Source of the DNA: Promethearchaeia archaeon
Lineage (GTDB): Archaea; Asgardarchaeota; Lokiarchaeia; Sigyniarchaeales; SOKP01
Length of the DNA stretch: 32,000 nt
NCBI GenBank assembly: GCA_046497275.1
Contig: JAWOFX010000148.1
Coordinates: 1-32,000 of the forward strand
Reading direction: 5' to 3'
The notes beneath the pieces were generated by a model, which saw only the letters and a list, made by a program, of their open reading frames with translations, was not told the DNA's origin and ran no database searches. The position numbers and the translations under genes were made by a program. Below are positions 6,586 through 29,413 of this stretch, in pieces; positions within the stretch are counted from its first letter, which is position 1, and each line of letters begins with the position of its first letter.

Positions 6586-7443
6586 TTATTTATATAATCT
6601 TAAGCTTGGAAAAAGATCGTTTGAAATTACTGATAAATCATATTCATGATAATTTTTTATAATATCTAAGAGAAATTCAAAATAATTTGATTGTATTTCT
6701 ATTTCATATTTTTCACTCAAAAGATAAATTAGTTCTTTCTTTGTAAATTCGCCTGTGTTAGAATGGTTCTGAAGAATGTTTATAATAGCCTTCGAGAGCT
6801 CAAACGCTTTTAAAACCTCATTCCTAAGCATAATTAATCCAGAAATCGGAAATTTCTCAGAGAGAAATTTTTTTATGATAGCACTCTCAATTTTGGCATT
6901 TTTCATAATTTTCTTTTTTTTCTCCTCATCAAAAATTTCATCATAATCAATTACTTCATAATTCTCATAATTATATCTATAACGTATATATTCTAATCGA
7001 TTAAGAATAGCAATATTATAATCAAAAGAGATTTCAAAGATAAAATCAAGTATTTTAGGCAGTTCTTGAGATATTATCTCACTATCATTCAATAAAAGTA
7101 CATCTTTCTTCAAAAATACACCTTTCAATATGGACGCAAGTTCGACTAAAGTTATATTGGATAATACTAATTTTAAATCAATTTTTTCAAGATTTCTATG
7201 TGAATTCAAACGATTTTCATCTTGAATGTTAATATTAGGCGATTCAAGTGTAAAATCACTGACAAAACTATCCCGAATGTTGAAATTTTTGTCAACATAT
7301 GATATAAATGAATGGGGGCAAATAATGGACTTATCAATATTTACCGCTACAATACCTCTTTTACTTTTTTCTAGTAGTGTCTCGTCTACTTCGATTTTTC
7401 CCGATTTATTACATACGGGACAATGTATTTTAACTCTTTTCAT
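6586..7443 (-). CDS. Hypothetical protein with N-terminal CxxC...CxH zinc-binding module, alpha/beta core and C-terminal wHTH-like helices
   Basis: HCPVC (aa 7-11) and ICPH (aa 42-45); 285-aa ORF with codon style like the flanking genes. Confidence 0.75.
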   Translation of the reverse strand: MKRVKIHCPVCNKSGKIEVDETLLEKSKRGIVAVNIDKSIICPHSFISYVDKNFNIRDSFVSDFTLESPNINIQDENRLNSHRNLEKIDLKLVLSNITLVELASILKGVFLKKDVLLLNDSEIISQELPKILDFIFEISFDYNIAILNRLEYIRYRYNYENYEVIDYDEIFDEEKKKKIMKNAKIESAIIKKFLSEKFPISGLIMLRNEVLKAFELSKAIINILQNHSNTGEFTKKELIYLLSEKYEIEIQSNYFEFLLDIIKNYHEYDLSVISNDLFPSLRLYK

Positions 7444-7607
7444 CCAAAAAATAAAATAAAATAATATATAATAATATTTTCTATTCCTAATTTTCCTACG
7501 ACAATCTTAAATTATTTATAAAAGCTTTGATTAAGTTTTTGGATCTAAAAATATTTAGGATTTTAAAAAAGAACTAATTAAAGTGAGGATTAGGATATTT
7601 AATTGAG

Positions 7608-8372
7608 TTAAATTTCTAGTTTTCTCAAATCTTCGGCTATTATTACCTCATTCTTAAAAATCTCTTCCGCGGATTTTTTCATTAACGGCATTTGGCTTTC
7701 AAATATGGGTGAAATGTGAACTAAGACGAGCTTTTTCGAATTAGACTTTTTCGCCATATGAGCGGCATCGGAGGGAGTACAATGGTGATATTTATGGGCA
7801 ACTTTCTGAAACTTATCTGGAAACGTTGCTTCACAAATGAAGAGATCAGAGTTTTTCGCAAGTATTTCTATTCTCTGATTAGGTTTTGTATCACCCGAAT
7901 ATGTAAGTTTGGAATTTTGAGACTCAATAGAATATGCGTATGCGGGAAATCCATGCTCAACTTGGATTGCATTTATTTTATAGGAATAACATTCCTTTAT
8001 TTCTTGGATCTCATCAGAATCTTTTAATTCAATAAAATCAATTTCAAAACTTCCCATATCTTCTGGAGTATGAGCGAGTTCGAGAATTGTTTTTATGGTT
8101 TTTTCAGTAGTTGGGGGTCCCACGATTTTTATAGATTTTGATCGGCCTGTAATCCAATAATACCATAGGAGTGAACAAATTCCTAAAAAATGATCATTAT
8201 GTAGATGAGTTATGCAGATATATTCTATTGAATCGATCTTCTTTAATCTAATCAGTTTTTGGGTCGTACCTTCTCCGCAATCCAAGAGTAAGTCATCATT
8301 AACTAGATAGGCGGGATATGTTCGATTTTCTGAAATTATTCCTCCAGATGTTCCAATTAATGTTATGTTCAT
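7608..8372 (-). CDS. Metallo-beta-lactamase fold hydrolase, RNase Z-like (lacks flexible arm)
   Basis: LLDCGEGT, THLHNDHFLG (HxHxDH), VEHG, YSGDT, CEATF, HHCT, VHIS. Start set at MNITLIGT. Confidence 0.85.
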   Translation of the reverse strand: MNITLIGTSGGIISENRTYPAYLVNDDLLLDCGEGTTQKLIRLKKIDSIEYICITHLHNDHFLGICSLLWYYWITGRSKSIKIVGPPTTEKTIKTILELAHTPEDMGSFEIDFIELKDSDEIQEIKECYSYKINAIQVEHGFPAYAYSIESQNSKLTYSGDTKPNQRIEILAKNSDLFICEATFPDKFQKVAHKYHHCTPSDAAHMAKKSNSKKLVLVHISPIFESQMPLMKKSAEEIFKNEVIIAEDLRKLEI

Positions 8373-8396
8373 AAATAACACTATTTCTAATACTAA

Positions 8397-9209
8397 TTAT
8401 TTTTTATCCTTAACTAATGTCCCACCTGAGCGTTTTGTGGCATTATTCTTAAATTTTGTCTGGAATCCCGGTTGATAATTCATATATTTCGGTATGGGAT
8501 ATCTTAGTCCCGCTTTATGAGTAGCTTCTAATCCATCTATAAGTATCCCTATTTTATTATTAGGTATGGAAAATAATACTTCCGAATCATCAGCACCTCC
8601 CCATACTCGATCCCCATTTCCTAAGATTACTAATTGAGGTTCATTAGTTTGAAATGGTTTCACAACTCCTTCATGACAAGAACCCATACGTCCCGCCGCA
8701 GTAAAATCCATAACTCCACCTTTCATATATAGATATGATTGGATTAATCGCATAGATTGTGCTGGTAAACAATATATTTGAATTATGTCAGGAACTATTT
8801 TAGTTCTTGTTAAGGGTGAGATAATTAATCCAACAAAATTCTCATGAAAGATAAAAAGATGGTCATCTAATCTTTTTGAAGTTTCTAAATCTTTAGAATA
8901 AAGTCCTATGTTAAATTGGTGACCCCATTCTGCTATATTTTGTGTTATTGGATCCCATCCATAAACAGTTCTGGCCAATTTACAAGCAATATCTTTTTCT
9001 GTTATTGCTATTGTCCACCCATATGATCGTGCCATTTTAAAATTCTGACAAACAAAATTATGCAAATCTAAATCTTTTTTAGGTCTTTTAGTATTTGGAG
9101 GTATTTCAGATTCATCTTTTATCATTTTAATTGCTAATGGATAAGTTGCTGGTCTAATATATCTCTCAATAGCTTTTCCATATTCTTGAAATTTTGTTAA
9201 ATCTTCCAT
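8397..9209 (-). CDS. DUF169 (COG2043-like) family protein
   Basis: PLAIKM...VCQNFKMARSYGW...IACK, PDIIQIYCLP, GSCHEG, LGNGDRVWGGADDSEV pattern of DUF169. Confidence 0.8.
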   Translation of the reverse strand: MEDLTKFQEYGKAIERYIRPATYPLAIKMIKDESEIPPNTKRPKKDLDLHNFVCQNFKMARSYGWTIAITEKDIACKLARTVYGWDPITQNIAEWGHQFNIGLYSKDLETSKRLDDHLFIFHENFVGLIISPLTRTKIVPDIIQIYCLPAQSMRLIQSYLYMKGGVMDFTAAGRMGSCHEGVVKPFQTNEPQLVILGNGDRVWGGADDSEVLFSIPNNKIGILIDGLEATHKAGLRYPIPKYMNYQPGFQTKFKNNATKRSGGTLVKDKK

Positions 9210-11181: not shown

Positions 11182-12033
11182 ATGGTTCAAGTATTTCTCA
11201 TAAACCCTGACGGAACAACTTCGGAGGTAAAAACAGAAGGATCTATAAAAGATGTGCTCGAAAATGATCAAGCTTATGTGATCGTATCCGACGATGTGCG
11301 AAAAGTGTATTTATGGAAAGGAATAAAAAGCAATGTTCGCTCAAAATTTATTGGAGCCAAACGAAGTCAAGAAATTAGAGGACAAGTTGGTATGCATTAT
11401 AGCGTCGTGCCGTTAGATCAGAACGAAGAAGATGAAGATCCTGATTTTCTTGGGTTAATTGGTGGAAGGACAACTAATGGTATTGCAAAAGAGATTTCAG
11501 CGGATGATATTGGGGGTGCCTCTAAAGGAAGCGGAGGACATCCATTACGAGAAAAATCTGAATTTGCTCCTCCCGAACCTGCATCAGATATGAATATTGC
11601 GGGAAGTAAAACAAGAAGTAAGCAAAATAGTGGTCCTCTTTATAAAGGGGAGGAATCTTTAGCTGCTTTTACCACTGATGAGCAAAAAATCAATTTTGAG
11701 CAAATTATGCAAAAACTTGAAGAAATAAAAATGCCAAATGGCTATGAAAGAGAATTATTAATTATTGGAAATCATGCATATGCTTTGGTAGAGAAAAAAC
11801 AATCATTTCTAGGAAAAACTACTAGCGAAAAAATACTTGAAAAAGTTGGAACGATACCAGAAGGAATTTTCTTTGCGGAGAGTTATAGCCCCCGTATATT
11901 ATCAGAGGGTGGTAATATCGTAGCAATAGAATTTTTAAAAAAAACAGGAAATACCAAAGCTAAAGTAGAAGAGCAAGATAAAAGAAGTATGTTGAAGAAC
12001 CAAATTAAATCGCAACTAGAGAACAAAAAATAA
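11182..12033 (+). CDS. Asgard single-domain gelsolin with C-terminal X domain (1DGelX-like)
   Basis: aa 1-95 DQAYVIV...KVYLWKG...RSKFIGAKRSQEI...DQNEEDEDPDFL fit the gelsolin repeat; disordered linker; compact C-terminal domain (GYERELLIIG...IPEGIFFAESYSPRIL...AIEFLKK). Confidence 0.75.
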   Translation: MVQVFLINPDGTTSEVKTEGSIKDVLENDQAYVIVSDDVRKVYLWKGIKSNVRSKFIGAKRSQEIRGQVGMHYSVVPLDQNEEDEDPDFLGLIGGRTTNGIAKEISADDIGGASKGSGGHPLREKSEFAPPEPASDMNIAGSKTRSKQNSGPLYKGEESLAAFTTDEQKINFEQIMQKLEEIKMPNGYERELLIIGNHAYALVEKKQSFLGKTTSEKILEKVGTIPEGIFFAESYSPRILSEGGNIVAIEFLKKTGNTKAKVEEQDKRSMLKNQIKSQLENKK

Positions 12034-12109: not shown

Positions 12110-12502
12110 ATGAGCGATTTAACTCCTGAGGAAGCAAAGAGTTTGTCAAACTTTTTGGGAAATATTACGGAACATTCAGAACTAGAAGCCTTAGCTTTAA
12201 TAACTCGTGAAGGTCTTCGATTAGCTTTTTCTAGCGTACCTGGATATAATGTTGATCCCGATTTATTTTCAAGTCTAAGTGCTGTAGTAGTACAAAGTGG
12301 CACTGATGCGATTTCTACATTAGGTTACCATAATATGCTCGAGGTCATTTTACGTGGAGAGGATGCATTTATCATTCTCTCAGATGCTGGAAGATTCTTT
12401 TTAATGGGTGCATGTAGAAAAATTGAAGACCTCGGAAAAATAGTCTCAATTTTTAGATACTACTCTGGTGAAATCAGAAAACGATATCCACGAAAAGAAT
12501 AA
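12110..12502 (+). CDS. Roadblock/LC7 (MglB/LAMTOR2-like) protein
   Basis: 130 aa; ELEALALITREGLRLA...DLFSSLSAVV...LEVILRGEDAFIIL...DLGKI is the roadblock alpha-beta-beta-alpha-beta-beta-beta-alpha pattern. Confidence 0.9.
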   Translation: MSDLTPEEAKSLSNFLGNITEHSELEALALITREGLRLAFSSVPGYNVDPDLFSSLSAVVVQSGTDAISTLGYHNMLEVILRGEDAFIILSDAGRFFLMGACRKIEDLGKIVSIFRYYSGEIRKRYPRKE

Positions 12503-12692
12503 AATTCTCTTTTTTCACACAAAATATGAAGTAAATATATTTATATTCGTTTTTGCTATTTTTTTTATAAAGAGTTAAAATTTAACCCAAATTGAATTCT
12601 TACATTTAGGTAAATATTATAGATTTTAATATTGGGAAAAATAAAATAATTTATTAATCATTTAAAATAAATCATTAAAAAATCTATTAAAG

Positions 12693-14846
12693 ATGTCAAA
12701 AGAAATAAAAATTTTCGTGGATCAAAAACAAGATATTTCCAATACAGTTATAATATCTCCAGAAAATGCAAGAAAATTAGAAGTTTCAAATGGACAAAAT
12801 GTAGAGGTTTATAATCCAGATAACGGACAAACCGTGAATGCAATGGTGCAAGTTTCTGAAAATGTATTAGATTTTGCGGGTAAATTTTCAAAAGATATTT
12901 TACAGAATGTTAATTATTCTGGTGTTGAATTAATTGTGCGTTCCCAAGGTACGGGGACATCTCAACCCGCATCTCAACCAGCTCCAACACAAGCTACAAG
13001 TCCTCCACCTCGAGATGCTGGAGGTACCTTTACACCTCCGCCAAAACTCAAACGCCCAGAAGTCTCACCAAAACCACCTCCTCCTCCCGCACCTCGTCAA
13101 ACAACTTCAAGTCCTAGTGAAGTTCCAAAACCTCCTCAATCAGCTCCTACTCCCCCCTCAGATATTCCATCTCAATCCCCACGTCCTCCATCTGTAGTTT
13201 CGTACCAACCACCCGGAGGATCCCGACCTCCTTCTCCTATCTCTTCAGAACAGTCTTTTCCACAGGAATCATCAATGCCACAGCCAGAGCCAGAACCCTT
13301 TCCGAATAGAATTGATCCAAATATGTTAGCACAACAAAAAAATGGAATTGTCGTTCAACCTGTCGTGTCCGCTAAGATAGAAGGAGGGAGGATTCAATTA
13401 AGCTCCAATAATTTACAAAGACTTGGTCTGGGGCAAGGAATGCTTGTTGCGTGGGAAGATCCTCTTACACGCTCCAATGGTTCAGCTAGAATAGATGTTG
13501 CTGCAATAAGTGATGCTCAAATTAAAATTAGTCAAGACACTAAAGAAGATACAAATATTCAATCAGATCAAATCGTTATATACTCTACAGAACCACCCAT
13601 CCAAAAAGCTGAAAGCTTGATATTAGAAGTAGAGTCCCGTGCTGGATTAGAAGGATATGCATTAGTAAGTCCTAGAACTCAACACACTTTATCTCTTCAA
13701 AATGATGATGTAATCGCTTTTGAAGATGATTTAACAGGCGCGATGGGAGCGGGAAAAGTGAGAATCTCTGAGAGAGTCAATGATAATATCATTGTTATTG
13801 ACAGTGAAATATTAGAAGCATCCGGAATAGGCAGTTTTGAAGTAACTGTGTCAAAAAATCAAAGACAAATTATTCCTTTACAGAGTGTTTCTTTGGGTAT
13901 TTCCCCCATCTCAGGGGAAAATATGTGGGAAATCGTGAGTACTGCTCGACAAAATATAGGGCAACTTAAGAGTTGGCTTTCTAAATATATAATTTTTAAA
14001 GGGATTAAACTTAGATGGAAAGCCGTTAACATAGCATGTTCCATTCTTAGTTGCGTACCAGATTTAACTGGTGATGTATTAGCTCAAATAACTCCCAATA
14101 GCGCATTGACCTTGGCTCCCCAAGGATTAATACCATTTAATGCAATTCTTATCATCGATATTAGTCGTTCAATGATGGCACGAGATGTCCTTGTGACAAA
14201 CATAGCCCCAGCTATAGAGGGTATCAAAGCTGCGATGGAAAGTAGAGAAATTCAAGAGTTTCTGAAGAAATTTAAAGACGGAGTAAATATCCCACGGCGA
14301 ATATCTGCTGCATTTGCCGCAGTTCTATTTTTAAGTGAAAAAGTAGGGAGGGGATTTGGTGAAAAAGTCTCTGTAATTCGATTCGCTGATGAATCTCAAA
14401 TTCTCCCATTTGGAGGGAGCTTCTATATGGATTCTGCCAGTGGTAAGAAAGGTATACTTGAAGATGCCGCTCGTTTGATTGTTGATAGGATTGGAAATGC
14501 ATATGGTCAAGCCACGAATATGGGCAGTGCAATGGTCAAAGCAAAAGCGGTCTTGGATGAGTTCAATGAAATGAATCCTAACCAACCGACTATGATAGTA
14601 TTGCTTACTGATGGCGTACCCACTGATGGCGACGCTTTCTTTAATACGATACAGCTTTTCGCAGAAAACCCCAACGTAGTGATCTATATAGTTGGTCTTG
14701 GAAACCCAGATGATGAATTGATGAATAGAGCCGCTCAATTATGCGGTGGAGAGTATTTCAAACCAGATGATGCTGGAGAACTATTAGTTTGGTACTCTAA
14801 AAGAGCACGCGACCTCTCTGTAAAACTGAAAGCACATAAACACTAA
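12693..14846 (+). CDS. Multidomain protein: double-psi barrel, Pro-rich linker, two more double-psi barrels, Cdc48 Nc-like subdomain, vWA (MIDAS)
   Basis: Three repeats of I-x-IS-x4-L-x-L-x2-G/D-x-V (aa 3-84, 218-298, 308-388); vWA with DISRS (aa 489-493), ATNMG and LLTDGVP. Confidence 0.75.
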   Translation: MSKEIKIFVDQKQDISNTVIISPENARKLEVSNGQNVEVYNPDNGQTVNAMVQVSENVLDFAGKFSKDILQNVNYSGVELIVRSQGTGTSQPASQPAPTQATSPPPRDAGGTFTPPPKLKRPEVSPKPPPPPAPRQTTSSPSEVPKPPQSAPTPPSDIPSQSPRPPSVVSYQPPGGSRPPSPISSEQSFPQESSMPQPEPEPFPNRIDPNMLAQQKNGIVVQPVVSAKIEGGRIQLSSNNLQRLGLGQGMLVAWEDPLTRSNGSARIDVAAISDAQIKISQDTKEDTNIQSDQIVIYSTEPPIQKAESLILEVESRAGLEGYALVSPRTQHTLSLQNDDVIAFEDDLTGAMGAGKVRISERVNDNIIVIDSEILEASGIGSFEVTVSKNQRQIIPLQSVSLGISPISGENMWEIVSTARQNIGQLKSWLSKYIIFKGIKLRWKAVNIACSILSCVPDLTGDVLAQITPNSALTLAPQGLIPFNAILIIDISRSMMARDVLVTNIAPAIEGIKAAMESREIQEFLKKFKDGVNIPRRISAAFAAVLFLSEKVGRGFGEKVSVIRFADESQILPFGGSFYMDSASGKKGILEDAARLIVDRIGNAYGQATNMGSAMVKAKAVLDEFNEMNPNQPTMIVLLTDGVPTDGDAFFNTIQLFAENPNVVIYIVGLGNPDDELMNRAAQLCGGEYFKPDDAGELLVWYSKRARDLSVKLKAHKH

Positions 14847-16297: not shown

Positions 16298-17467
16298 ATG
16301 TCGGCTGAAGATACTAGATATTTAAGACCAATCATAATTGATTTCGGGTCAAGCATGTTTAGACTGGGTTGGGCGGGGGATGATTTTCCAGAAACTCTTA
16401 GCCCAAGTATCTATGTTGATATTTCAGATTATATTTTTAACTCTGATGTTATAAATGGTTTGGAAGAGATATTTATAGGGGAAGGAGATCAAGATTATCT
16501 TTTTGGGGGAGAGGCTTTAAAATATCAAAATATATTAAAAATTCATGAATTTATAAAAGAAGAAAATTACAACATTTTGGAAAAATATTTTCTATTTCAT
16601 TATCAGAAATTAAATATTCCTGAAAAATATCATTTTATGCAACCAGCTATTATTCTCAGCCCTTTTAACATAACGGATATGGTTAAAGCAAAATTACAAC
16701 ATATCTTTTTTGAGAAATTTCAATTTCCTTTTTTATTATTTCTTCCCGCTGATAAAGCGATCTTGTCTACCTTAAGGAAATCTGATGGAGTAATCGTGAA
16801 TATGGGAGAAAATAGTACTTATATATCTTCAATTTATCATGGTTTTACCAATATAATGGCTAGAGATGTTTTTCCAATCGCCGGTGAAGAATTAACAAAT
16901 TATTTCTTGAACATGATTTTAAAGGGAAGAGGTTCAAGCAGAAATTTCTATTTAGATTTTTGGCTTGCTAAGGAAATCAAGGAAAAAATGTCTCTATGTG
17001 TACAAAATCCAAAAAAAGAAAGAGAACGTATAAAAGAGGGCTTAACAAAATATGATAGAGTCGTAAAATTGCCAGATAATTCACAATTAAAAATAAATTC
17101 TGAACGATTTATGATAGCAGAACCCCTTTTTGACCCTAAGGTTGTTCATATCGATTATATATCACTTTCAGAAGTTATAGCGAAGATAGTAAAGTTTTGG
17201 GATCGGGAAAATTGGGAACATCTGATATCTAATATCGTACTTTCTGGAGGGGGTAGTTTGATTCCAGGTTTAAAGGATAGACTGCAATCAGATTTAAAGA
17301 ATTATTTTTCTGATAAATTGAAAGATAAGATAAAGGTATTAGCTCCTTCAGGCAGAGATAATATGAGTTGGATCGGGGCGAGTATCTTATTTGGTCTAGA
17401 TAAATTAGAGGGATGGATTAGAAACCCGAAACTAGAGAAGGAAAAAAGTGAGGAGAGTGAGAATTAG
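16298..17467 (+). CDS. Divergent actin-related protein (Asgard ARP, not canonical Lokiactin)
   Basis: IIIDFGSSMFRLGWAGDDFP (actin DNGSGMCKAGFAGDDAP), ERFMIAEPLFDP, IVLSGGGSLIPGLKDRL, WIGASIL. Confidence 0.92.
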   Translation: MSAEDTRYLRPIIIDFGSSMFRLGWAGDDFPETLSPSIYVDISDYIFNSDVINGLEEIFIGEGDQDYLFGGEALKYQNILKIHEFIKEENYNILEKYFLFHYQKLNIPEKYHFMQPAIILSPFNITDMVKAKLQHIFFEKFQFPFLLFLPADKAILSTLRKSDGVIVNMGENSTYISSIYHGFTNIMARDVFPIAGEELTNYFLNMILKGRGSSRNFYLDFWLAKEIKEKMSLCVQNPKKERERIKEGLTKYDRVVKLPDNSQLKINSERFMIAEPLFDPKVVHIDYISLSEVIAKIVKFWDRENWEHLISNIVLSGGGSLIPGLKDRLQSDLKNYFSDKLKDKIKVLAPSGRDNMSWIGASILFGLDKLEGWIRNPKLEKEKSEESEN

Positions 17468-17469
17468 AG

Positions 17470-20043
17470 ATGTCTGTCGATGTTGAGAAAAAAAAAAGGT
17501 TTTTGAGTGAATTTCAAGACCGTGTAATCCAAGCACGGAGATTACTTCAATCAGGAAATCATCATTGGGCTTCTAAATTAATCTTAGATTTATATTTTGA
17601 TATTGAAACGAAAGAATGGCTTAATGCTCAAAAAAAGCATCAGCTTATTTTAGTTCTCTCAAATTCCTTTTGGATCTATATTAATTCTCTTAAAAAAAGC
17701 AATAAAGAAGATATAGATTTGATAAGATACATTGATGCTCATAAACGATTTTTTTCATTTCTTACAAAATTAGAAGATTTCCATCTCTTTGAAAAGTTTG
17801 CTACAAATTTGATTCATTCTTTCATTAAAATGGAAGATCTTTCTATTGAAGGAATAACACAATTCATTAATTCTTTCTCAATAAAAGTGATTGAGGAAAA
17901 AGATTATTTAAAATTAATCGAGCTTCAAATTTTATTAATGTTTTTAAGAAAATCAGTTATCCCTACGGATTATTTTCGAACTGCGATGGAATATCTCGGA
18001 AGAATAATCTACAAATTAGAACCAAGTAAAAGGGCACTCTTTCTCTATATAATTTTGGAAAATGTTAATATAAAGTTCAATTTAATTGAACATTCTGAAG
18101 AATTCATTAATATTATGAATAAAATCTTAGTAAATCGAATACCTAATTATCTAAGAGAATATTTTAGTAATTTAAGCAGAATTAAAATAAATAAAGGAAC
18201 TTTTAATTCAATTAAGAATGATCTTATAGATTTGATTCATTATTTGAATAATATTGGTGAGGCTTCATGGATTATTATTATTATACGGATATTATTTGAT
18301 AAGGTAAAAAAGTATGAGTCATTGGGTGACGCAATTACAGTAACACGAGAATTTGTAGAATATTCTATTGATCGAAACAATTTTCAGGTTGCTTTTGAAA
18401 TTTATAATTTTTTAGAAGATTTATTTTTAATGCAATCTGATTTAGGCTATGATAACGTTACTATTGAACTTTGGGCGGAAGCATGCAAACGATTCGTTAC
18501 TATGAAAGAAAAAAAATATTTATTACAATCGATAGAAAAGCTAACTAATCATTTAAGCACTCCTCAAAAACCGCCTCAAATTTTCCATTATTTTTATACT
18601 TGCAACTATCTCTGGAAATTTAAAAGCATGTTTTTTTCATTAGAGAGACGAGATTTTTGGAACATGATCTTCTACCGCGCTTTATATGATCAAGATGATT
18701 TGGAACTAGCTAAAAAGATAATCCCATATTTAGGAAAGCGAATACGACCTCTTTTAGAGAACTTAGAAGAATTACATAAGCAAACTAAGGAATTAAAAAA
18801 TGAGATCTATTTTTTAGAAGACAAAAAGGAACATTCTTTTTATCAACAAGAATTTGAGATTAAAAATATCATTATTAGAATAAAATCCTCGGGGGAAATG
18901 TCTTATCGAATTCTCTCATTAGCAAATGAAATAATTGAGGGAAAAATAAAAAATGAATATTGGAACGATTTACACGTTCTTGATATTTACAATGATTTAT
19001 TTTCAGATAAAAAAGAAAAAGAATTTAATTTTAACCTTCAAGAATTCGGTACTATTCTCTTTCTTTTATTACCAAAATTGATTCGAGATTTTTTTACGCA
19101 ATTTCAAATTAAAAGTTTGGATTACATACCTCAAATATACTTTATCCTGAATCATATGTCAATTCCATTTGAATTAATCTATGATAGTAATTTTTTCTTG
19201 TTAAAATATTCGAGTGGTTATAATATTGGTGAACCATCAATAGAAGGTTATAAATTTTCTCCAGATAAATATGAATCTTCGATCGAAAATGCTTCTGATG
19301 GATCTTATAAAGTGTTAATAATTGATTCAATTAATGCGTTAGGACCTAAAATTTGGAATGAAGAAAAAAAATCAAAAGAGATTTTGTTTCCATTTCCATC
19401 GGGAGCAAATGAACTTAATTTTATAACCCAATTTCTTAATGAGAGAAGTGAGGTTGAAAGTATGGAGATTCTTACTGGTAGAGAAAGTACACGTGAATCT
19501 ATTCTTAATAAAATCGGTTCTGGTACTCATCATTTAATTTATATCGTAGGAAATATTTTCTTTTCTGAATTAAATCCACAAAATTCCTATTTCATTACCA
19601 ACGATGATAATATTGTTAAATTTACAGAGATTTTTGATATGTTAAAGAAAAATAACAGAATTAAACCACTTCTATTTTTTAACACACAACTTTTTGATAA
19701 TGAAGGGAATCATCTAAAAGAAGAATTAACAAGTTTTGGTGAGATTATTTCCCAATTTAGATTTAATGATATAAATGGAATTATGAGTAGAAATTATCCT
19801 ATTTTTAATGACGAAACAAAACAAATAATAACAAATTTTTTCTCCAATTTGTTTGAAAACAAGAGCTTAGGTATATCCCTTTTAGATGCCAGACAAAAAG
19901 TCATAGCTGAAAGGACCACGAAACTAATCCAAGAGCAAATTTCAAAATTTGATAAAATTGAAAAAGATCAACATATCAATATTGAAAATAGTCAAGCGAT
20001 TTCTAGTTTTCTACTTTTTGGGGAGCCTTGGAAGAAATTATAA
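17470..20043 (+). CDS. Alpha-helical solenoid plus C-terminal CHAT (caspase-like) domain lacking catalytic His/Cys
   Basis: CHAT blocks: LLLPK...IPFELIY, ELNFI...LTGRESTRE, LIYIVGN (for IHFAGH), LLFFNTQ (for LVFLNAC), SLGISLLDARQ, FLLFGEP. Confidence 0.75.
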   Translation: MSVDVEKKKRFLSEFQDRVIQARRLLQSGNHHWASKLILDLYFDIETKEWLNAQKKHQLILVLSNSFWIYINSLKKSNKEDIDLIRYIDAHKRFFSFLTKLEDFHLFEKFATNLIHSFIKMEDLSIEGITQFINSFSIKVIEEKDYLKLIELQILLMFLRKSVIPTDYFRTAMEYLGRIIYKLEPSKRALFLYIILENVNIKFNLIEHSEEFINIMNKILVNRIPNYLREYFSNLSRIKINKGTFNSIKNDLIDLIHYLNNIGEASWIIIIIRILFDKVKKYESLGDAITVTREFVEYSIDRNNFQVAFEIYNFLEDLFLMQSDLGYDNVTIELWAEACKRFVTMKEKKYLLQSIEKLTNHLSTPQKPPQIFHYFYTCNYLWKFKSMFFSLERRDFWNMIFYRALYDQDDLELAKKIIPYLGKRIRPLLENLEELHKQTKELKNEIYFLEDKKEHSFYQQEFEIKNIIIRIKSSGEMSYRILSLANEIIEGKIKNEYWNDLHVLDIYNDLFSDKKEKEFNFNLQEFGTILFLLLPKLIRDFFTQFQIKSLDYIPQIYFILNHMSIPFELIYDSNFFLLKYSSGYNIGEPSIEGYKFSPDKYESSIENASDGSYKVLIIDSINALGPKIWNEEKKSKEILFPFPSGANELNFITQFLNERSEVESMEILTGRESTRESILNKIGSGTHHLIYIVGNIFFSELNPQNSYFITNDDNIVKFTEIFDMLKKNNRIKPLLFFNTQLFDNEGNHLKEELTSFGEIISQFRFNDINGIMSRNYPIFNDETKQIITNFFSNLFENKSLGISLLDARQKVIAERTTKLIQEQISKFDKIEKDQHINIENSQAISSFLLFGEPWKKL

Positions 20044-20135: not shown

Positions 20136-20672
20136 TTGTCAGATGATAGGTTAATAGAATTAAGAGTAGAAAATCGAAGATTAAAACAAGAAGTTGAAAA
20201 TTTGGAAAACAAGATATTAACTTTAGTTGGTAATGTCGAAATAGGGATTTCAGGTGGTCCAAACAATAATAATTTGATTAATGATGAAATTATCAATCTA
20301 ATAGGGTCCACAAATCATCAACTTAATATTTTGTCACCAAAAATCGATAGATTTTATACTAATGAACTTATGAATCTTGCAAACAAAGGTCTTGAAATTA
20401 GAGTGGTAACGCTTGAAAGAAGTAATATACCTAGTGAATTTTTAGAATATTATGATGAGTTAAAAAATGAGCGGAACATTAAAGTTATTAACAACCCTAA
20501 TGTCGCTAGTCTATTACTATTTAATGAAAAGGAAGCTATCTTTACACAGGGTTCATTAGATAAAAAAGAGTTACAGGAGTCAATGTTAATTGAAACCAAA
20601 GTTAAATCCATGACCACTTTGGAAACAATTAGAGAATATTATAATTTATTTCTTCCGTCTTTTATGAGATAA
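20136..20672 (+). CDS. Short coiled coil plus PLD-like domain without HKD
   Basis: TTG start; LRVENRRLKQEVENLENKI heptads; EIINLIGSTNHQLNILSP...LANKGLEIRVVT...NNPNVASLLLFNEKEAIFTQGSL follows the PLD-fold pattern. Confidence 0.65.
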   Translation: MSDDRLIELRVENRRLKQEVENLENKILTLVGNVEIGISGGPNNNNLINDEIINLIGSTNHQLNILSPKIDRFYTNELMNLANKGLEIRVVTLERSNIPSEFLEYYDELKNERNIKVINNPNVASLLLFNEKEAIFTQGSLDKKELQESMLIETKVKSMTTLETIREYYNLFLPSFMR

Positions 20673-20812: not shown

Positions 20813-23023
20813 ATGTCTGAGAAGAAAGTAATCACCGCAAATAGCATAGTGGAATTATTTGGAAAAGGAACCAAGCTTTATGTAAAAATCTCAGAAAATA
20901 TTCATAATCAAATAGAAAATAATAAAAAATTATTTCATAAGAAACTTGGAATCTGGAAAAAAATATTTCACCCAATTTATGAAACAAAATCTGATAAAGA
21001 GTTATTTTTAGACCATTTAATTTACTCAAACATATTATATGTGATTCTTCTCATTAGAATATCGAAAAAAAATCATATTCAATTTAAAAAAATCTATAAT
21101 CAATATAAAACAAAAGATTTTGAGATAATATCTGATCAAATAATAGATTTATTCAAATGGATAAAAATTCAAGAGAATATTTTTAAAGAAATATATGATA
21201 TAATTGTTGATACTCATTTAGGGTCGGAAGATTTGTTTCACTCACTTTATCAACAGATTTTTCAATCTTCTATCAGGCATCTCGCTGGTGAGTTTTACAC
21301 TCCTTCAAAATTAGTTGAAAAAATGGTGAGCGATACCTATAAATTTGGGAAAAAAGTGTTAGATCCATCGTGTGGTTCAGGTAATTTTCTTATGGAGATT
21401 ATTTCAAGAATAATCAAATCAGAGAAACCAATTAATTCTAAATATGAAGCACTAAACAATCTTTTTGGGTTCGACATTAATCCATTAGCAATTTACACAT
21501 TAAAGATAAATGTAATTTTGATTCTTCATGAAAATTTCTCGGACATTAATCTTAATAAATTTGATTTGAATTTTTATGTGCTTGATTCTCTCTTCCCAGA
21601 AAATTCTCGAAAAGATCCTAATCTCAGATTAAAAAATATTTACAATTCATTTGATTTAATTATCGGAAACCCTCCTTGGTTAACATATAAGGATATCTAT
21701 GATAAAGCATATCAGAAGAATATAAGAAAATTGGCCGATACTCTTAATATTAAACCCAAAAGTCAATATATTACCCATATTGAATTAGCCACAATTTTTT
21801 TTTATGCTATTCCAAAAAAATTTTCAAAAATTAATGGCATTATCTTTTTTGTGATCACTAAAAGTGTTATAAATGGAGATCATTGCAGGAAGTTCAGATC
21901 ATTTAAATTTTTCAATAATCTTGAAATATGGGATTTTCCCGATGATTATAACTTCAATGTGAATCATGTTTGCATAAAAGCTAAATATATAGGAGAGAAA
22001 AAGGAACCTATTCAAGAAAAATATCCGATTTTAACCAAAATTTTTGATGCTGCATTAAATCTTAAGGAAGAGTTGCTATATTCATCCCTAAAATTAGAAG
22101 AAGATGGTGCATTACTACTATTACCTCAAAAAGATTTAGATCATTTATCAAATTTTAAATATAGTAGATATAAAGATAAATTTTATCAAGGTGCGACACT
22201 GGTTCCTAGACCATTAATATTTTTCCAAGTCACTGAAAAAAAAGATAATATTCTTATCATTTCTTCGAGTAAAGATATTCTTTCACGGTCAAAAAATAAG
22301 TGGAGATTTGAATTTAAAAATAAGAAAATTGAAGAAAATTTTAGATATAAAACATTTCTTAACAAAGATCTAGTACCTTTTTTCTTGAAAAGAGAGCGAG
22401 ATGTATTTCTACCCATTGATCTAACTGATTTTGATTTTAAAATTAATTATTTACAAAAATTTCCACAAGCTTTCACATTTTATAAGGAAATGAATGAGAT
22501 TTATAAATCTCGCAAAAAAGCCACAAGTGATATAAACACTTTATTTTCTAATTTGAATTATTGGAATAAATTAACCAAGCAAAAAAAAACAGAGCCATAT
22601 CTGGTAATATATAATGCCAGTGGCTCCTATTTGAAATCAGCTGTGATCGAGCAATTTGAAAAAAAAATTATTGTTGGTTCTGAAAATTATTATTATGCCA
22701 CTGACCAAAAAAATGAAGCTTATTATCTTACCGCTATTTTAAACAGTCCTATCTTAACTAAGTATATCAAAATGATTAAGAGCTCACGGCATATTCATAA
22801 ACGCCCATTCTCTTTTCCAATTCCAATTTATGATAATAAAAATGAATCGCATTATAAGCTTGCTCATAAAGGAAAAAAATATACTTCTTATGCCCACGAT
22901 ATTGTCTATAATAATCCAAAAATTACTCCGCGAAAAATAAGAATGATTTTAAATCAGAATTTAAAAAAATTAGATCCTATAGCCAGAAATGTGCTTTTTA
23001 ATCAGAAAATTCATAAAGAATAA
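20813..23023 (+). CDS. N6-adenine DNA methyltransferase with target-recognition domain (type IIG-like, nuclease domain apparently absent)
   Basis: GEFYTP, VLDPSCGSGNF (motif I), GFDINP, DLIIGNPPW (motif IV); about 350-aa C-terminal TRD-like region. Confidence 0.88.
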   Translation: MSEKKVITANSIVELFGKGTKLYVKISENIHNQIENNKKLFHKKLGIWKKIFHPIYETKSDKELFLDHLIYSNILYVILLIRISKKNHIQFKKIYNQYKTKDFEIISDQIIDLFKWIKIQENIFKEIYDIIVDTHLGSEDLFHSLYQQIFQSSIRHLAGEFYTPSKLVEKMVSDTYKFGKKVLDPSCGSGNFLMEIISRIIKSEKPINSKYEALNNLFGFDINPLAIYTLKINVILILHENFSDINLNKFDLNFYVLDSLFPENSRKDPNLRLKNIYNSFDLIIGNPPWLTYKDIYDKAYQKNIRKLADTLNIKPKSQYITHIELATIFFYAIPKKFSKINGIIFFVITKSVINGDHCRKFRSFKFFNNLEIWDFPDDYNFNVNHVCIKAKYIGEKKEPIQEKYPILTKIFDAALNLKEELLYSSLKLEEDGALLLLPQKDLDHLSNFKYSRYKDKFYQGATLVPRPLIFFQVTEKKDNILIISSSKDILSRSKNKWRFEFKNKKIEENFRYKTFLNKDLVPFFLKRERDVFLPIDLTDFDFKINYLQKFPQAFTFYKEMNEIYKSRKKATSDINTLFSNLNYWNKLTKQKKTEPYLVIYNASGSYLKSAVIEQFEKKIIVGSENYYYATDQKNEAYYLTAILNSPILTKYIKMIKSSRHIHKRPFSFPIPIYDNKNESHYKLAHKGKKYTSYAHDIVYNNPKITPRKIRMILNQNLKKLDPIARNVLFNQKIHKE

Positions 23024-28798: not shown

Positions 28799-29413
28799 AT
28801 TCCTTCACGTCGTGGTGATGGCACTCTGGTCTTCAAAGTATGCTTTTACGGACCATCCTTAGGAGGGAAGACCACTGCATTGGACTGGGTCTATCGGAAG
28901 GAGGGACTCGCTTCAGGAGATATGCAGCAAATTCAGGATCCTACTGGCCGAACACTTTTTTTTGATAGAGTTGTTGCTAAAGTATCAAATGTAGTTTTTC
29001 AAGTATATACTGTTGCGGGTCAGCGAAGACATAAATTTCAGAGACAAACTGTATTAAAAGGAACAGATTCAATTATTTTTGTCTGGGACAGCTTAATTGA
29101 TCAATGGGAAGAAAATATATGGTCCCTTAAAGAATTATTAAAATTTTACGGTAATAAATTACTTCCAAAAGGACCTGGAGAGCCTCCAGAAGTACCGATG
29201 GTTGTTTTGGCAAACAAGAGAGATTTAGAGGATATTGTGGATGTATCTAAAGTTCGACAAGTATTAGATACAGCTAAGCTAGGTGAAACATTGATTTATG
29301 AGACTATTGCGATAACTGGAGTAAATGTAAAGCGAGGTTTCGTGTATGCTGCAAGACAAGCAGTTTTAAACCATTATAAGAAATTATCCGGTCAAACGAT
29401 GGAAAAGACATAA
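28799..29413 (+). CDS. MglA-like small GTPase (204 aa; probable non-canonical ATT start)
   Basis: In-frame upstream extension IPSRRGDGTLVFKVCFYGPSLGGKTT supplies G1. G2 GRTLFFD, G3 YTVAGQ and G4 NKRD match the MglA family. Confidence 0.88.
   Translation: MPSRRGDGTLVFKVCFYGPSLGGKTTALDWVYRKEGLASGDMQQIQDPTGRTLFFDRVVAKVSNVVFQVYTVAGQRRHKFQRQTVLKGTDSIIFVWDSLIDQWEENIWSLKELLKFYGNKLLPKGPGEPPEVPMVVLANKRDLEDIVDVSKVRQVLDTAKLGETLIYETIAITGVNVKRGFVYAARQAVLNHYKKLSGQTMEKT

What the first reader, a model, noticed from the sequence alone, without database searches (positions are those of the whole stretch)
16298..17467. Actin-related protein with a rewired nucleotide site
Seen: phosphate-1 loop (D15-F-G-S) and adenosine motif (LSGGG) are kept. 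The phosphate-2 DxG is N168-M-G, there is no Gln at the Q137 position (A151 by ungapped alignment), H161 corresponds to Y175, the sensor loop lacks PIEHG, the D-loop region is an acidic, longer segment, and the actin C-terminal helices are replaced by a short charged tail. Established: Q137, D154 and H161 drive ATP hydrolysis, and the D-loop and C-terminus mediate filament contacts. Inference: binds nucleotide but hydrolyses poorly and probably does not form canonical filaments (capping, nucleating or monomeric scaffold role).
Basis: partly seen in the sequence, partly recalled or inferred. Interest (0 to 1): 0.62.

Follow-up and report, generated by a model that had tools for sequence, protein, structure and literature searches.

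The report
Asgard actin relative without hydrolysis residues
This Lokiarchaeal gene encodes a real but very divergent actin-fold protein that keeps the nucleotide-binding loops but has lost the three residues actin uses to split ATP, and it always travels with a separase-like dead protease, so it is probably a subunit of an undescribed complex rather than a filament builder.

Summary
ORF 16298-17467 (+) encodes a 389-aa actin-fold protein: Pfam Actin 166 bits, and an AF2 model that matches actin at Z 40.

By profile alignment and model, actin Q137/D154/H161 correspond to A151/N168/Y175. PIEHG is absent, subdomain 2 has an 11-residue acidic insert, and the last actin helix is missing.

- It belongs to a tight, single-copy family of 195 unique orthologues, found in one GTDB family. 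That family is normally E/N/Y at the triad, with an acid at the Q137 site in 192 of 195. Only this lineage has Ala there.
- With three sister subfamilies it forms a clade split 100/100 from Lokiactins, eukaryotic actins and centractins. The clade includes 'Ca. L. ossiferum' ARP UYP47647.1.
- It sits in a conserved four-gene module: helical protein, ARP, TPR-CHAT pseudoprotease, 178-aa protein.
- In the neighbouring GTDB family, ARP and TPR-CHAT are present together in 7 genomes and missing together in 7.
- The "neighbouring gelsolin" is real, but it lies four genes upstream and the linkage holds only within this family.

Best reading: a nucleotide-binding, hydrolysis-poor, non-filament ARP subunit. 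No biochemistry was done.

The scan has noted this ARP and its module before, on this DNA and in other genomes.

The parts
16298..17467 (+). Module ARP gene, 389 aa (P0001); end coordinate includes the stop codon
   Evidence: ORF. Pfam Actin 166 bits. AF2 pLDDT 88.8. Actin fold at Z 40, rmsd 2.1-2.6 A over about 350 residues.
16340..16363 (+). Phosphate-1 loop, D15-F-G-S-S-M-F-R22 (actin D11...K18)
   Evidence: hhalign. D15 is kept in 179/195, G17 in 195/195, and R/K22 in 195/195.
16412..16495 (+). Subdomain-2 (D-loop) segment, residues 39-66: 11 residues longer than actin, acidic, and conserved within the family (Y39, D44, S49, G54 invariant)
   Evidence: The model is less confident here, pLDDT about 65.
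16544..16567 (+). Sensor-loop equivalent, HEFIKEEN; no PIEHG and no His73 equivalent
   Evidence: The feature is shared by the whole 16-row divergent clade.
16748..16750 (+). Codon GCT = A151, the position of actin Q137
   Evidence: The family has E in 174, D in 18, A in 2 and K in 1 of 195.
16799..16822 (+). Phosphate-2 loop, N168-M-G-E-N-S-T-Y175 (actin D154...H161)
   Evidence: N168 is kept in 169/195, G170 in 194/195, E171 in 187/195 and Y175 in 132/195.
17240..17254 (+). Adenosine motif, L315-S-G-G-G319 (actin G301-G302-T303)
   Evidence: G317 is kept in 195/195 and G318 in 192/195.
17426..17464 (+). Variable charged C-terminal tail (residues 377-389) in place of actin's last helix
15626..16243 (+). 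Module partner 1: 205-aa protein with a basic, disordered N-terminus and a highly conserved C-terminal helical domain of about 115 aa
   Evidence: Adjacent to the ARP in 79/80 orthologue loci. C-domain mean column identity is 72%. Confined to families f1, f2 and f31 of one order.
17470..20043 (+). Module partner 2: 857-aa helical-repeat plus CHAT-like (caspase-fold) protein. Its start lies 2 nt after the ARP stop
   Evidence: Adjacent in 78/80 loci. Pfam CHAT matches 19/36 members. AF2 pLDDT 83.7. Best PDB folds are Csx29/TPR-CHAT, DdvA and separase. Present and absent together with the ARP in family f2.
20136..20672 (+). Module partner 3: 178-aa protein with a weak PLD-like hit
   Evidence: Present in 64/80 loci. 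Kept in the sister-subfamily loci L093, L094 and L104.
11182..12033 (+).
   Evidence: A profile of 25 orthologues hits Lokiarchaeota 2DGel 7whg_G at E 3.2e-9 and 7c2f_B at E 3.9e-7. A single-sequence Pfam search gave only E 0.16. In synteny in 47/80 loci.

Best explanation
The gene encodes a member of a distinct, fast-evolving lineage of Asgard actin-related proteins, called 'module ARP' here. The lineage is confined to one order of Lokiarchaeia and includes 'Ca. Lokiarchaeum ossiferum' UYP47647.1.

Shown:
- The protein keeps the full actin fold.
- It keeps the backbone elements that hold a nucleotide: the phosphate-1 and phosphate-2 glycines, the G182 equivalent, the K213/E214 equivalents and the GG of the adenosine motif.
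- The water-activating triad of actin is replaced. The family consensus is E151/N168/Y175, an acid/amide swap relative to Q137/D154. This protein is A151/N168/Y175.
- The module is conserved, and the ARP and the TPR-CHAT protein are lost together in family f2.

Inferred:
- It binds ATP or ADP mainly as a structural or slow-switch cofactor and has little or no intrinsic ATPase.
- It lacks the sensor loop, has a changed subdomain-2 loop and lacks the C-terminal helix that F-actin contacts and nucleotide sensing rely on. So it does not build canonical filaments.
- It works as a stoichiometric subunit of a complex with the products of its operon neighbours, above all the separase/Csx29-like TPR-CHAT pseudoprotease encoded 2 nt downstream. 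This is analogous in logic to Arp4/Arp8 in chromatin remodellers.
For: Identity and fold.

Triad mapping.

Family statistics over 195 unique orthologues:
- Nucleotide-binding positions are invariant or nearly so: G17, G170, G196, K228, G317, G318.
- The Q137 site is E in 174, D in 18 and A in 2.
- The D154 site is N in 169. The H161 site is Y in 132 and S in 34.
- Across the sister subfamilies the triad is not conserved at all.

Literature:
- Q137 positions the attacking water, and D154 and H161 activate it. Q137A is slower, and Q137A/D154A/H161A has no measurable ATPase (PMC9646518).
- Arp8 has E at Q137 and S at H161, binds ATP tightly and has low basal ATPase. Arp4 has T at Q137 and its ATP is structural (PMC3510490).

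Phylogeny: a careful ML tree gives a 100/100 split of a 16-row clade from the sampled Lokiactins, eukaryotic actins, centractins and the genome's other paralogues.

Distribution:
- The gene is single copy in 61/68 genomes of its own GTDB family and in 0/232 elsewhere in the phylum.
- It has 95 species-level hits.

Module:
- The order up205, ARP, dn857, dn178 is kept in 79, 78 and 64 of 80 loci.
- It is also kept around the 27-33%-identical sister ARPs.
- It is kept in G309, where both published UYP47647.1 primers match exactly.

Co-loss: in family f2 the ARP and the dn857-like gene are found in the same 7 genomes and missed in the same 7. In the single-contig genome G210, the up205-like and dn178-like genes abut where the ARP and dn857 would be. 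G210 retains only Lokiactin and the C- and D-type paralogues.

Partner fold: TPR-CHAT/separase-like.
Against: - No biochemistry was done. Nucleotide binding, ATPase activity and polymerisation are all inferred.
- 192 of 195 family members keep an acid at the Q137 site. This argues that catalysis or metal/water handling still matters in the family, so this Ala variant may be atypical rather than representative.
- E171 (actin D157) and D15 (D11) remain and could support slow hydrolysis.
- The barbed-end cleft is partly kept (F183 for Y169, I363 and L364 for I345 and L346). The plug region has normal length. A polymer of its own kind is therefore not excluded.
- Kin are not independent. The joint absence in family f2 may reflect only one or two loss events, and several of those genomes are incomplete (74-93%).
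Confidence: 0.6

Rival explanations
1. It regulates Lokiactin filaments as a pointed- or barbed-end capper or a nucleator, in the manner of Arp2/3 or Arp11. It would dock on Lokiactin through actin-like contacts, and its module partners would target or regulate it.
For: - The actin fold is complete.
- Part of the hydrophobic cleft is kept.
- The subdomain-2 insert is conserved yet modelled with low confidence, as expected for a segment that folds on a partner.
- A gelsolin-domain gene lies in the same conserved island within family f1.
- Da Cunha et al. place two 'asgardactin' clades with ARP10 (PMC8850707).
Against: - Nothing links it specifically to Lokiactin.
- Genomes that lost the ARP keep Lokiactin.
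- The ARP's presence tracks the TPR-CHAT gene, not any actin-binding gene.
- The gelsolin linkage is absent around the sister ARPs and in G309.
- No Arp2/3-complex-like partner genes were seen in the module.
Confidence: 0.2
2. It is a filament former of its own kind: a second, specialised actin-like polymer. In most species the Glu at the Q137 site would drive hydrolysis, as in Arp8-like, MreB-like or ParM-like sites. The module partners would act as adaptors, as arcadins do for crenactin or ParR for ParM. This species' Ala variant would make more static filaments.
For: - An acid at the Q137 site is kept in 192/195 members.
- The nucleotide-binding elements are invariant.
- Conservation is even across all four subdomains.
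- Actin-like filament genes in prokaryotes commonly sit in small operons with adaptor proteins (general knowledge).
Against: - The triad is unconserved across the sister subfamilies (Q, E, H, P, S, N or A at the 137 site). That is unusual for a cytomotive ATPase.
- The sensor loop and the C-terminal helix are lost.
- In 'Ca. L. ossiferum', Lokiactin transcripts were severalfold higher than those of the other actin homologues, and the observed filaments were assigned to Lokiactin (PMC9834061).
Confidence: 0.15
3. It is a decaying or functionless paralogue, and the odd residues reflect relaxed selection.
For: - This lineage alone has lost the acid at position 151.
- The genome also holds a degenerate actin-like remnant on contig C66.
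Against: - The ORF is intact.
- Orthologues are 57-95% identical across at least 95 species, and 63 columns are invariant in a 48-sequence alignment.
- The gene is single copy and near-universal in its family.
- Synteny is strict.
Confidence: 0.03

Closest known systems
'Ca. Lokiarchaeum ossiferum' actin homologue UYP47647.1, one of the three non-Lokiactin 'ARPs' of Rodrigues-Oliveira et al. 2022 (PMC9834061)
   Same: - It belongs to the same divergent clade. The gene in G309 that carries both published primers is 33% identical to this protein and 42% identical to sister representative P0133.
- It has the same four-gene module.
   Different: - It belongs to a different subfamily in another GTDB family.
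- The paper reports only its tree position and RT-qPCR. It gives no function, partner or active-site analysis.
Nuclear Arp8 and Arp4 (INO80/SWR1/BAF subunits)
   Same: - They are actin-fold proteins that bind ATP but do not polymerise and act as subunits of larger complexes.
- Arp8 has Glu at Q137, Ser at H161 and a non-Gly at G15. Arp4 has Thr at Q137, and its ATP is structural (PMC3510490).
- Family members here have E151, Y or S at 175, and a non-Gly residue at position 19.
   Different: - No orthology has been shown.
- D154 is kept in Arp8 but is Asn here.
- Arp8's large insertions are absent.
- The partner here is a TPR-CHAT pseudoprotease, not an HSA-helix ATPase.
- There is no chromatin link.
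Lokiactin / conventional actin
   Same: - The fold is the same (Z 40), with about 25-29% identity.
- The phosphate-1, phosphate-2 and adenosine glycines are kept, as is the K213/E214 pair.
   Different: - It lies on the other side of a 100/100 split in the tree.
- Q137, D154 and H161 are all replaced.
- There is no PIEHG and no terminal helix, and subdomain 2 carries an insert.
- The genome has two bona fide Lokiactin-like genes elsewhere.
Arp10/Arp11 (dynactin pointed-end ARP) and 'asgardactin 04-05' of Da Cunha et al. 2022 (PMC8850707)
   Same: They are very divergent ARPs that are thought not to polymerise. That paper groups two Asgard clades with ARP10.
   Different: It was not tested whether this family is asgardactin 04 or 05, or whether it is related to ARP10.
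Crenactin-arcadin and ParM-ParR type operons
   Same: An actin-fold gene sits in a tight operon with small helical or adaptor proteins.
   Different: Those actins are active, polymerising ATPases with a conserved catalytic site. Here the catalytic site is degenerate and the main partner is a large pseudoprotease.

Membership tests
Actin family (Pfam PF00022; actin/Arp branch of the ASKHA superfamily) | Significant match to the family profile over the full length | tested here: met
   166 bits against a cut-off of 27, covering residues 10-370. PDB actins and Arp1 match at E about 1e-35.
Actin family (Pfam PF00022; actin/Arp branch of the ASKHA superfamily) | Four-subdomain actin fold | tested here: met
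   AF2 pLDDT 88.8 and pTM 0.86. Foldseek TM 0.80-0.83. VIA-align Z 40, rmsd 2.1-2.6 A over about 350 residues. This is a predicted structure, not a solved one.
Actin family (Pfam PF00022; actin/Arp branch of the ASKHA superfamily) | Phosphate-1, phosphate-2 and adenosine nucleotide-binding motifs | tested here: met
   D15-x-G17, x-x-G170-E171 and G317-G318 are present, and the glycines are invariant in 195 orthologues. The first residue of phosphate-2 is Asn, not Asp.
Filament-forming actin (conventional actin / Lokiactin) | Catalytic triad Q137, D154, H161 | tested here: not met
   The equivalents are A151, N168 and Y175.
Filament-forming actin (conventional actin / Lokiactin) | Sensor loop PIEHG with His73, and the C-terminal helix ending in Phe375 | tested here: not met
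   The sensor loop reads HEFIKE and is 3 residues shorter. The model aligns to actin only up to residue 365-366.
Filament-forming actin (conventional actin / Lokiactin) | Branches within the Lokiactin or eukaryotic actin clade | tested here: not met
   A careful ML tree puts it across a 100/100 branch from the genome's two Lokiactin-like genes and from the eukaryotic actins and centractins.
Filament-forming actin (conventional actin / Lokiactin) | Polymerises into double-stranded filaments with polymerisation-activated ATPase | not testable with these tools
   This needs purified protein.
Asgard 'module ARP' lineage (UYP47647.1 type; provisional group defined here) | Monophyly with the sister subfamilies and shared signatures: a WDR/WER motif in place of actin's CD(I/V)D, a (H/K)GF(T/P)N W-loop, and a short sensor loop | tested here: met
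   16-row clade with 100/100 support. The motifs were read.
Asgard 'module ARP' lineage (UYP47647.1 type; provisional group defined here) | Encoded between a small helical protein and a TPR-CHAT-like protein, followed by a protein of about 175 aa | tested here: met
   The window has gaps of 54, 2 and 92 nt. The arrangement holds in 79, 78 and 64 of 80 loci and in the sister loci and G309.
Arp2/3-type nucleator | Orthology to Arp2 or Arp3, with ARPC1-5-like partner subunits | tested here: inconclusive
   PDB Arp2 scores below actin and Arp1. No named Arp2 or Arp3 rows were in the tree. ARPC-like genes were not searched for.
Arp10/Arp11 (and asgardactin 04-05) | Sister relation to eukaryotic ARP10 in a tree that includes ARP4-ARP10 and crenactin | not tested
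   No ARP10, ARP11 or crenactin sequence could be obtained. The link is only reported in PMC8850707.

The most novel reading that the evidence does not exclude
The module ARP and the separase-like TPR-CHAT pseudoprotease, together with the helical 205-aa and 178-aa proteins, form a stable nucleotide-loaded complex. This would be a prokaryotic example of an actin-fold protein used as a non-filament structural subunit, as in eukaryotic Arp-containing machines. The conserved acidic subdomain-2 insert would be the docking element. The Glu/Asn acid-amide swap would turn the ATPase into a slow, partner-gated switch, which this species has frozen by changing Glu to Ala.
Probability: 0.25. Interest if true: 0.8.

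Novelty: new variant of a known kind. Interest (0 to 1): 0.55.

Why it matters
Asgard genomes encode several actin-related proteins besides Lokiactin, and none has a known function or partner. I found no functional study of them in the searched literature.

This ARP lineage offers three handles for experiments:
- It has a defined active-site signature.
- It has a natural hydrolysis-site knock-out variant next to Glu-bearing orthologues.
- It has fixed genomic partners, and one of them is lost together with it.

One member is present in a cultured organism ('Ca. L. ossiferum' UYP47647.1), so the question can be tested directly. If the ARP is a complex subunit, using actin folds outside filaments would predate eukaryotes.

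Tried and rejected
1. K153 as the Q137 equivalent. I first thought K153 (Q in most orthologues; motif SQAILS against actin IQAVLS) was the true equivalent. I dropped this because hhalign is ungapped in that region and the model's strand/helix boundary puts residue 151 at the helix start.

2. Complex prediction of the ARP (A3) with the C-terminal helical domain of the upstream 205-aa protein (A4). The result was no verdict: score 0.00, controls not run, and the partner's fold uncertain. This is not evidence either way.

3. Pfam search for a gelsolin in the window. Nothing was significant (E 0.16). The family search of the genome found gelsolin repeats above cut-off only on contig C51. This negative was overturned by a profile search of 25 orthologues against the PDB.

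4. ESM Atlas feature search. It returned only generic 'actin domain' clusters, with an 'Arp7' cluster at rank 8. This was uninformative.

5. Literature searches for an ARP/Roadblock/VWA or ARP/CHAT/separase association in Asgard archaea. Nothing relevant was found.

6. Foldseek and VIA-align ranking to tell ARPs from actin. All top hits are conventional actins within 1 Z unit of each other, so the ranking does not discriminate.

7. Placement relative to crenactin and ARP4-10.
Full report
**The gene and the observation**

The window is AT-rich, about 30% G+C. It carries an intact 389-codon ORF at 16298-17467 on the + strand.

- The protein scores 166 bits against Pfam Actin, where the cut-off is 27, over residues 10-370.
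- Its best solved relatives are yeast actin and Arp1 at E about 1e-35.
- An AlphaFold2 model built on 56 relatives is confident: pLDDT 88.8, pTM 0.86.
- The model superposes on actin at Z 40, rmsd 2.1-2.6 A over about 350 residues.

- The phosphate-1 loop is D15-F-G-S-S-M-F-R22.
- The phosphate-2 loop is N168-M-G-E-N-S-T-Y175. So actin D154 is Asn, D157 is Glu and H161 is Tyr.
- The adenosine motif is L315-S-G-G-G. The codons were read directly.
- For Q137 the alignments differ by one residue. phmmer gives P150. MAFFT and hhalign give A151.
- The model has a strand at 145-150 and a helix starting at 151. This matches actin's strand 131-136 and hinge helix 137-144 (my knowledge of the actin structure).
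- The sensor loop is HEFIKE, three residues shorter and without PIEHG.
- The subdomain-2 loop is 11 residues longer, with eight acidic and no basic residues.
- One correction: the model still aligns to actin up to residue 365-366. Only the last helix and F375 are replaced, by a variable charged tail.

**A conserved family with its own active-site signature**

- The large protein database holds at least 120 relatives at 57-95% identity, almost all from Lokiarchaeial (Promethearchaeota) MAGs.
- In the 50%-identity library the family is a single cluster. There is then a gap down to at most 33% identity.
- A scan of species-representative genomes found 95 species.
- In a sample of 300 genomes of the phylum, the gene is single copy in 61 of 68 genomes of the window's own GTDB family. 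It was not found in 232 genomes of 29 other families.

Over 195 unique orthologues:

- The positions that hold the nucleotide through backbone or conserved side chains are invariant or nearly so: G17, G170, G196, K228, G317 and G318, with R/K22 and E/D229.
- The D154 site is Asn in 169.
- The H161 site is Tyr in 132 and Ser in 34.
- The Q137 site is Glu in 174, Asp in 18, Ala in 2 and Lys in 1.

The family consensus is therefore E/N/Y. Relative to actin's Q137/D154 this is an acid-amide swap.

The protein in this window, together with a 95%-identical sequence from another assembly, is the only one with Ala at that site. Its closest relatives read Asp, and the next closest read Glu. So 'rewired' describes the family, while this protein has gone one step further.

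**What the substitutions mean**

- In F-actin, Q137 holds the attacking water. D154 and H161, through a bridging water, activate it.
- Q137A is slower but still active. The triple mutant Q137A/D154A/H161A has no measurable ATPase (PMC9646518).
- The protein here is a natural Q137A/D154N/H161Y.
- Precedents exist among eukaryotic ARPs. Arp8 has Glu at Q137, Ser at H161 and Thr at G15, binds ATP tightly and has low basal activity. Arp4 has Thr at Q137, and its ATP is thought to be structural (PMC3510490).
- I therefore infer nucleotide binding with little or no intrinsic hydrolysis for this protein. For the Glu-bearing majority I infer a slow, possibly partner-stimulated ATPase. This is inference and nothing was measured.

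**Phylogeny**

- The genome holds five intact actin-family genes and one degenerate one. They are two Lokiactin-like genes (444 and 425 bits), paralogue C, a 511-aa paralogue D, and this gene.
- A careful ML tree was built with 42 rows, LG+C20+F+G4. It places this family (stem length 0.89) with three sister subfamilies in a 16-row clade.
- A 100/100 branch separates that clade from all sampled Lokiactins, eukaryotic actins, centractins and paralogues C and D (rows named).
- The whole clade lacks PIEHG and the terminal helix. It shares a WDR/WER motif and a (H/K)GF(T/P)N loop.
- Across the sister subfamilies the triad is not conserved: Q, E, H, P, S, N or A at the 137 site; D or S at the 154 site; R or S at the 161 site.
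- ARP2-10 and crenactin were not in the tree. The reported link of two 'asgardactin' clades to ARP10 (PMC8850707) remains untested.

**Link to a published protein**

- The Lokiactin primer of Rodrigues-Oliveira et al. (PMC9834061) matches exactly one of 161 genomes of the class. That genome is G309, a single contig of 6,035,313 bp in the neighbouring GTDB family.
- G309 has four actin homologues, the number that paper reports.
- The homologue closest to this ARP is 33% identical to it and 42% identical to sister representative P0133. It carries both UYP47647.1 primers exactly.
- The published ARP UYP47647.1 is therefore a member of this lineage.
- The paper assayed its transcript by RT-qPCR and found Lokiactin severalfold higher. 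It reports no function.

**Genomic context**

- The ARP start lies 54 nt after a 205-aa gene. Its stop lies 2 nt before an 857-aa gene, and a 178-aa gene follows 92 nt later.
- In 80 orthologue loci, the 205-aa homologue is adjacent in 79, the 857-aa homologue in 78 and the 178-aa homologue in 64. All are on the same strand and in the same order. Most of the missing cases are at contig ends.
- The same four genes flank the 27-33%-identical sister ARPs and UYP47647.1 in G309.
- Within the window's own GTDB family the island extends further. Upstream are a gelsolin-domain protein, Roadblock, a VWA protein and an AbrB-ACT protein. Downstream is an MmeI-like methyltransferase.
- The 205-aa protein has a basic, disordered N-terminus and a C-terminal helical domain with 72% mean column identity. 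That domain occurs only in three families of one order: 117/134, 12/14 and 1/1 genomes, against 0/250 elsewhere.
- The 857-aa protein matches Pfam CHAT weakly, in 19 of 36 members. It folds as helical repeats (1-445) plus an alpha/beta domain, pLDDT 83.7. Its best PDB matches are Csx29/TPR-CHAT, DdvA and separase.
- Its consensus reads HFVGN, with an invariant Asn, at the place where I recall CHAT proteases carry their His-Gly. That it is catalytically dead is thus suggested, not proven.

**Joint loss**

- In the neighbouring GTDB family, the ARP and the TPR-CHAT gene are found in the same 7 of 14 genomes and are both not found in the other 7.
- Five of those seven still carry the helical-protein gene.
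- In the single-contig genome G210, the helical-protein and 178-aa genes lie directly next to each other, with the ARP and the TPR-CHAT gene missing between them.
- G210 keeps Lokiactin and the C- and D-type paralogues.
- Related genomes are not independent and some are incomplete. Still, this pattern singles out the TPR-CHAT protein as the ARP's functional partner, and it shows the ARP is not needed for Lokiactin to persist.

**The gelsolin**

- Single-sequence Pfam searches found no gelsolin in the window.
- A scan note pointed to ORF 11182-12033.
- A profile of 25 of its orthologues hits the solved Lokiarchaeota 2DGel at E 3.2e-9 and a gelsolin-like domain protein at E 3.9e-7, over its first 100 residues or so.
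However, it lies four genes upstream and is linked to the ARP only inside one GTDB family.

**Verdict**

- The interpretation (nucleotide-binding, hydrolysis-poor, not a canonical filament former) is the best-supported reading.
- I place the protein as a subunit of a complex with the TPR-CHAT pseudoprotease, not as a Lokiactin capper or nucleator (0.6 against 0.2). An independent polymer comes third (0.15).
- The single complex-prediction job (ARP with the helical domain) gave no verdict and counts for nothing.
- The scan has already noted this ARP and its module, in overlapping windows of this genome and in other genomes. My tests were made independently and agree with those notes.
- My tests also add four things: the Glu-to-Ala peculiarity, the identification with UYP47647.1, the order-level distribution, and the joint loss.

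Noticed in passing
own genome, contig C66:10869-11683 (-) (loci L006-L008): A sixth, very divergent actin-like stretch is split over frames or pieces and has an in-frame TAG. It is only 23-33% identical to any actin row. It looks like a degenerate remnant or a very aberrant paralogue.
   Followed up: partly
own genome, L001:1474-2619 and L002:1474-2613: There are two Lokiactin-like genes, 444 and 425 bits to Pfam Actin and about 80% identical to each other, on different contigs. G309 and G210 each show only one.
   Followed up: no
window 20813-23023 (+): A 736-aa MmeI/Eco57I-like N6-methyltransferase follows the module in 63 of 80 orthologue loci, at about 50% identity. That is unusually stable synteny for a restriction-modification-type enzyme. 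It is absent from the sister-subfamily loci.
   Followed up: no
L106 (G210:C1:3826000-3840000), 7297-8580 (-): In this single-contig genome the helical-protein and 178-aa genes of the module are adjacent, with the ARP and the TPR-CHAT gene cleanly missing. The two small proteins are therefore kept without the ARP.
   Followed up: partly
window 12110-14846 (+): A Roadblock/LC7 gene and a 717-aa VWA protein (with weak CDC48_N/DPBB-like hits at its N-terminus) are conserved upstream of the module in the same GTDB family. An Arf/Ras-like small GTPase lies at 28880-29413.
   Followed up: no
own genome paralogue D, L004:1483-3018: A 511-aa actin-family protein has orthologues of about 500-550 aa in G309 and G210. 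It is a long ARP type, conserved across the order, and was not examined further.
   Followed up: no
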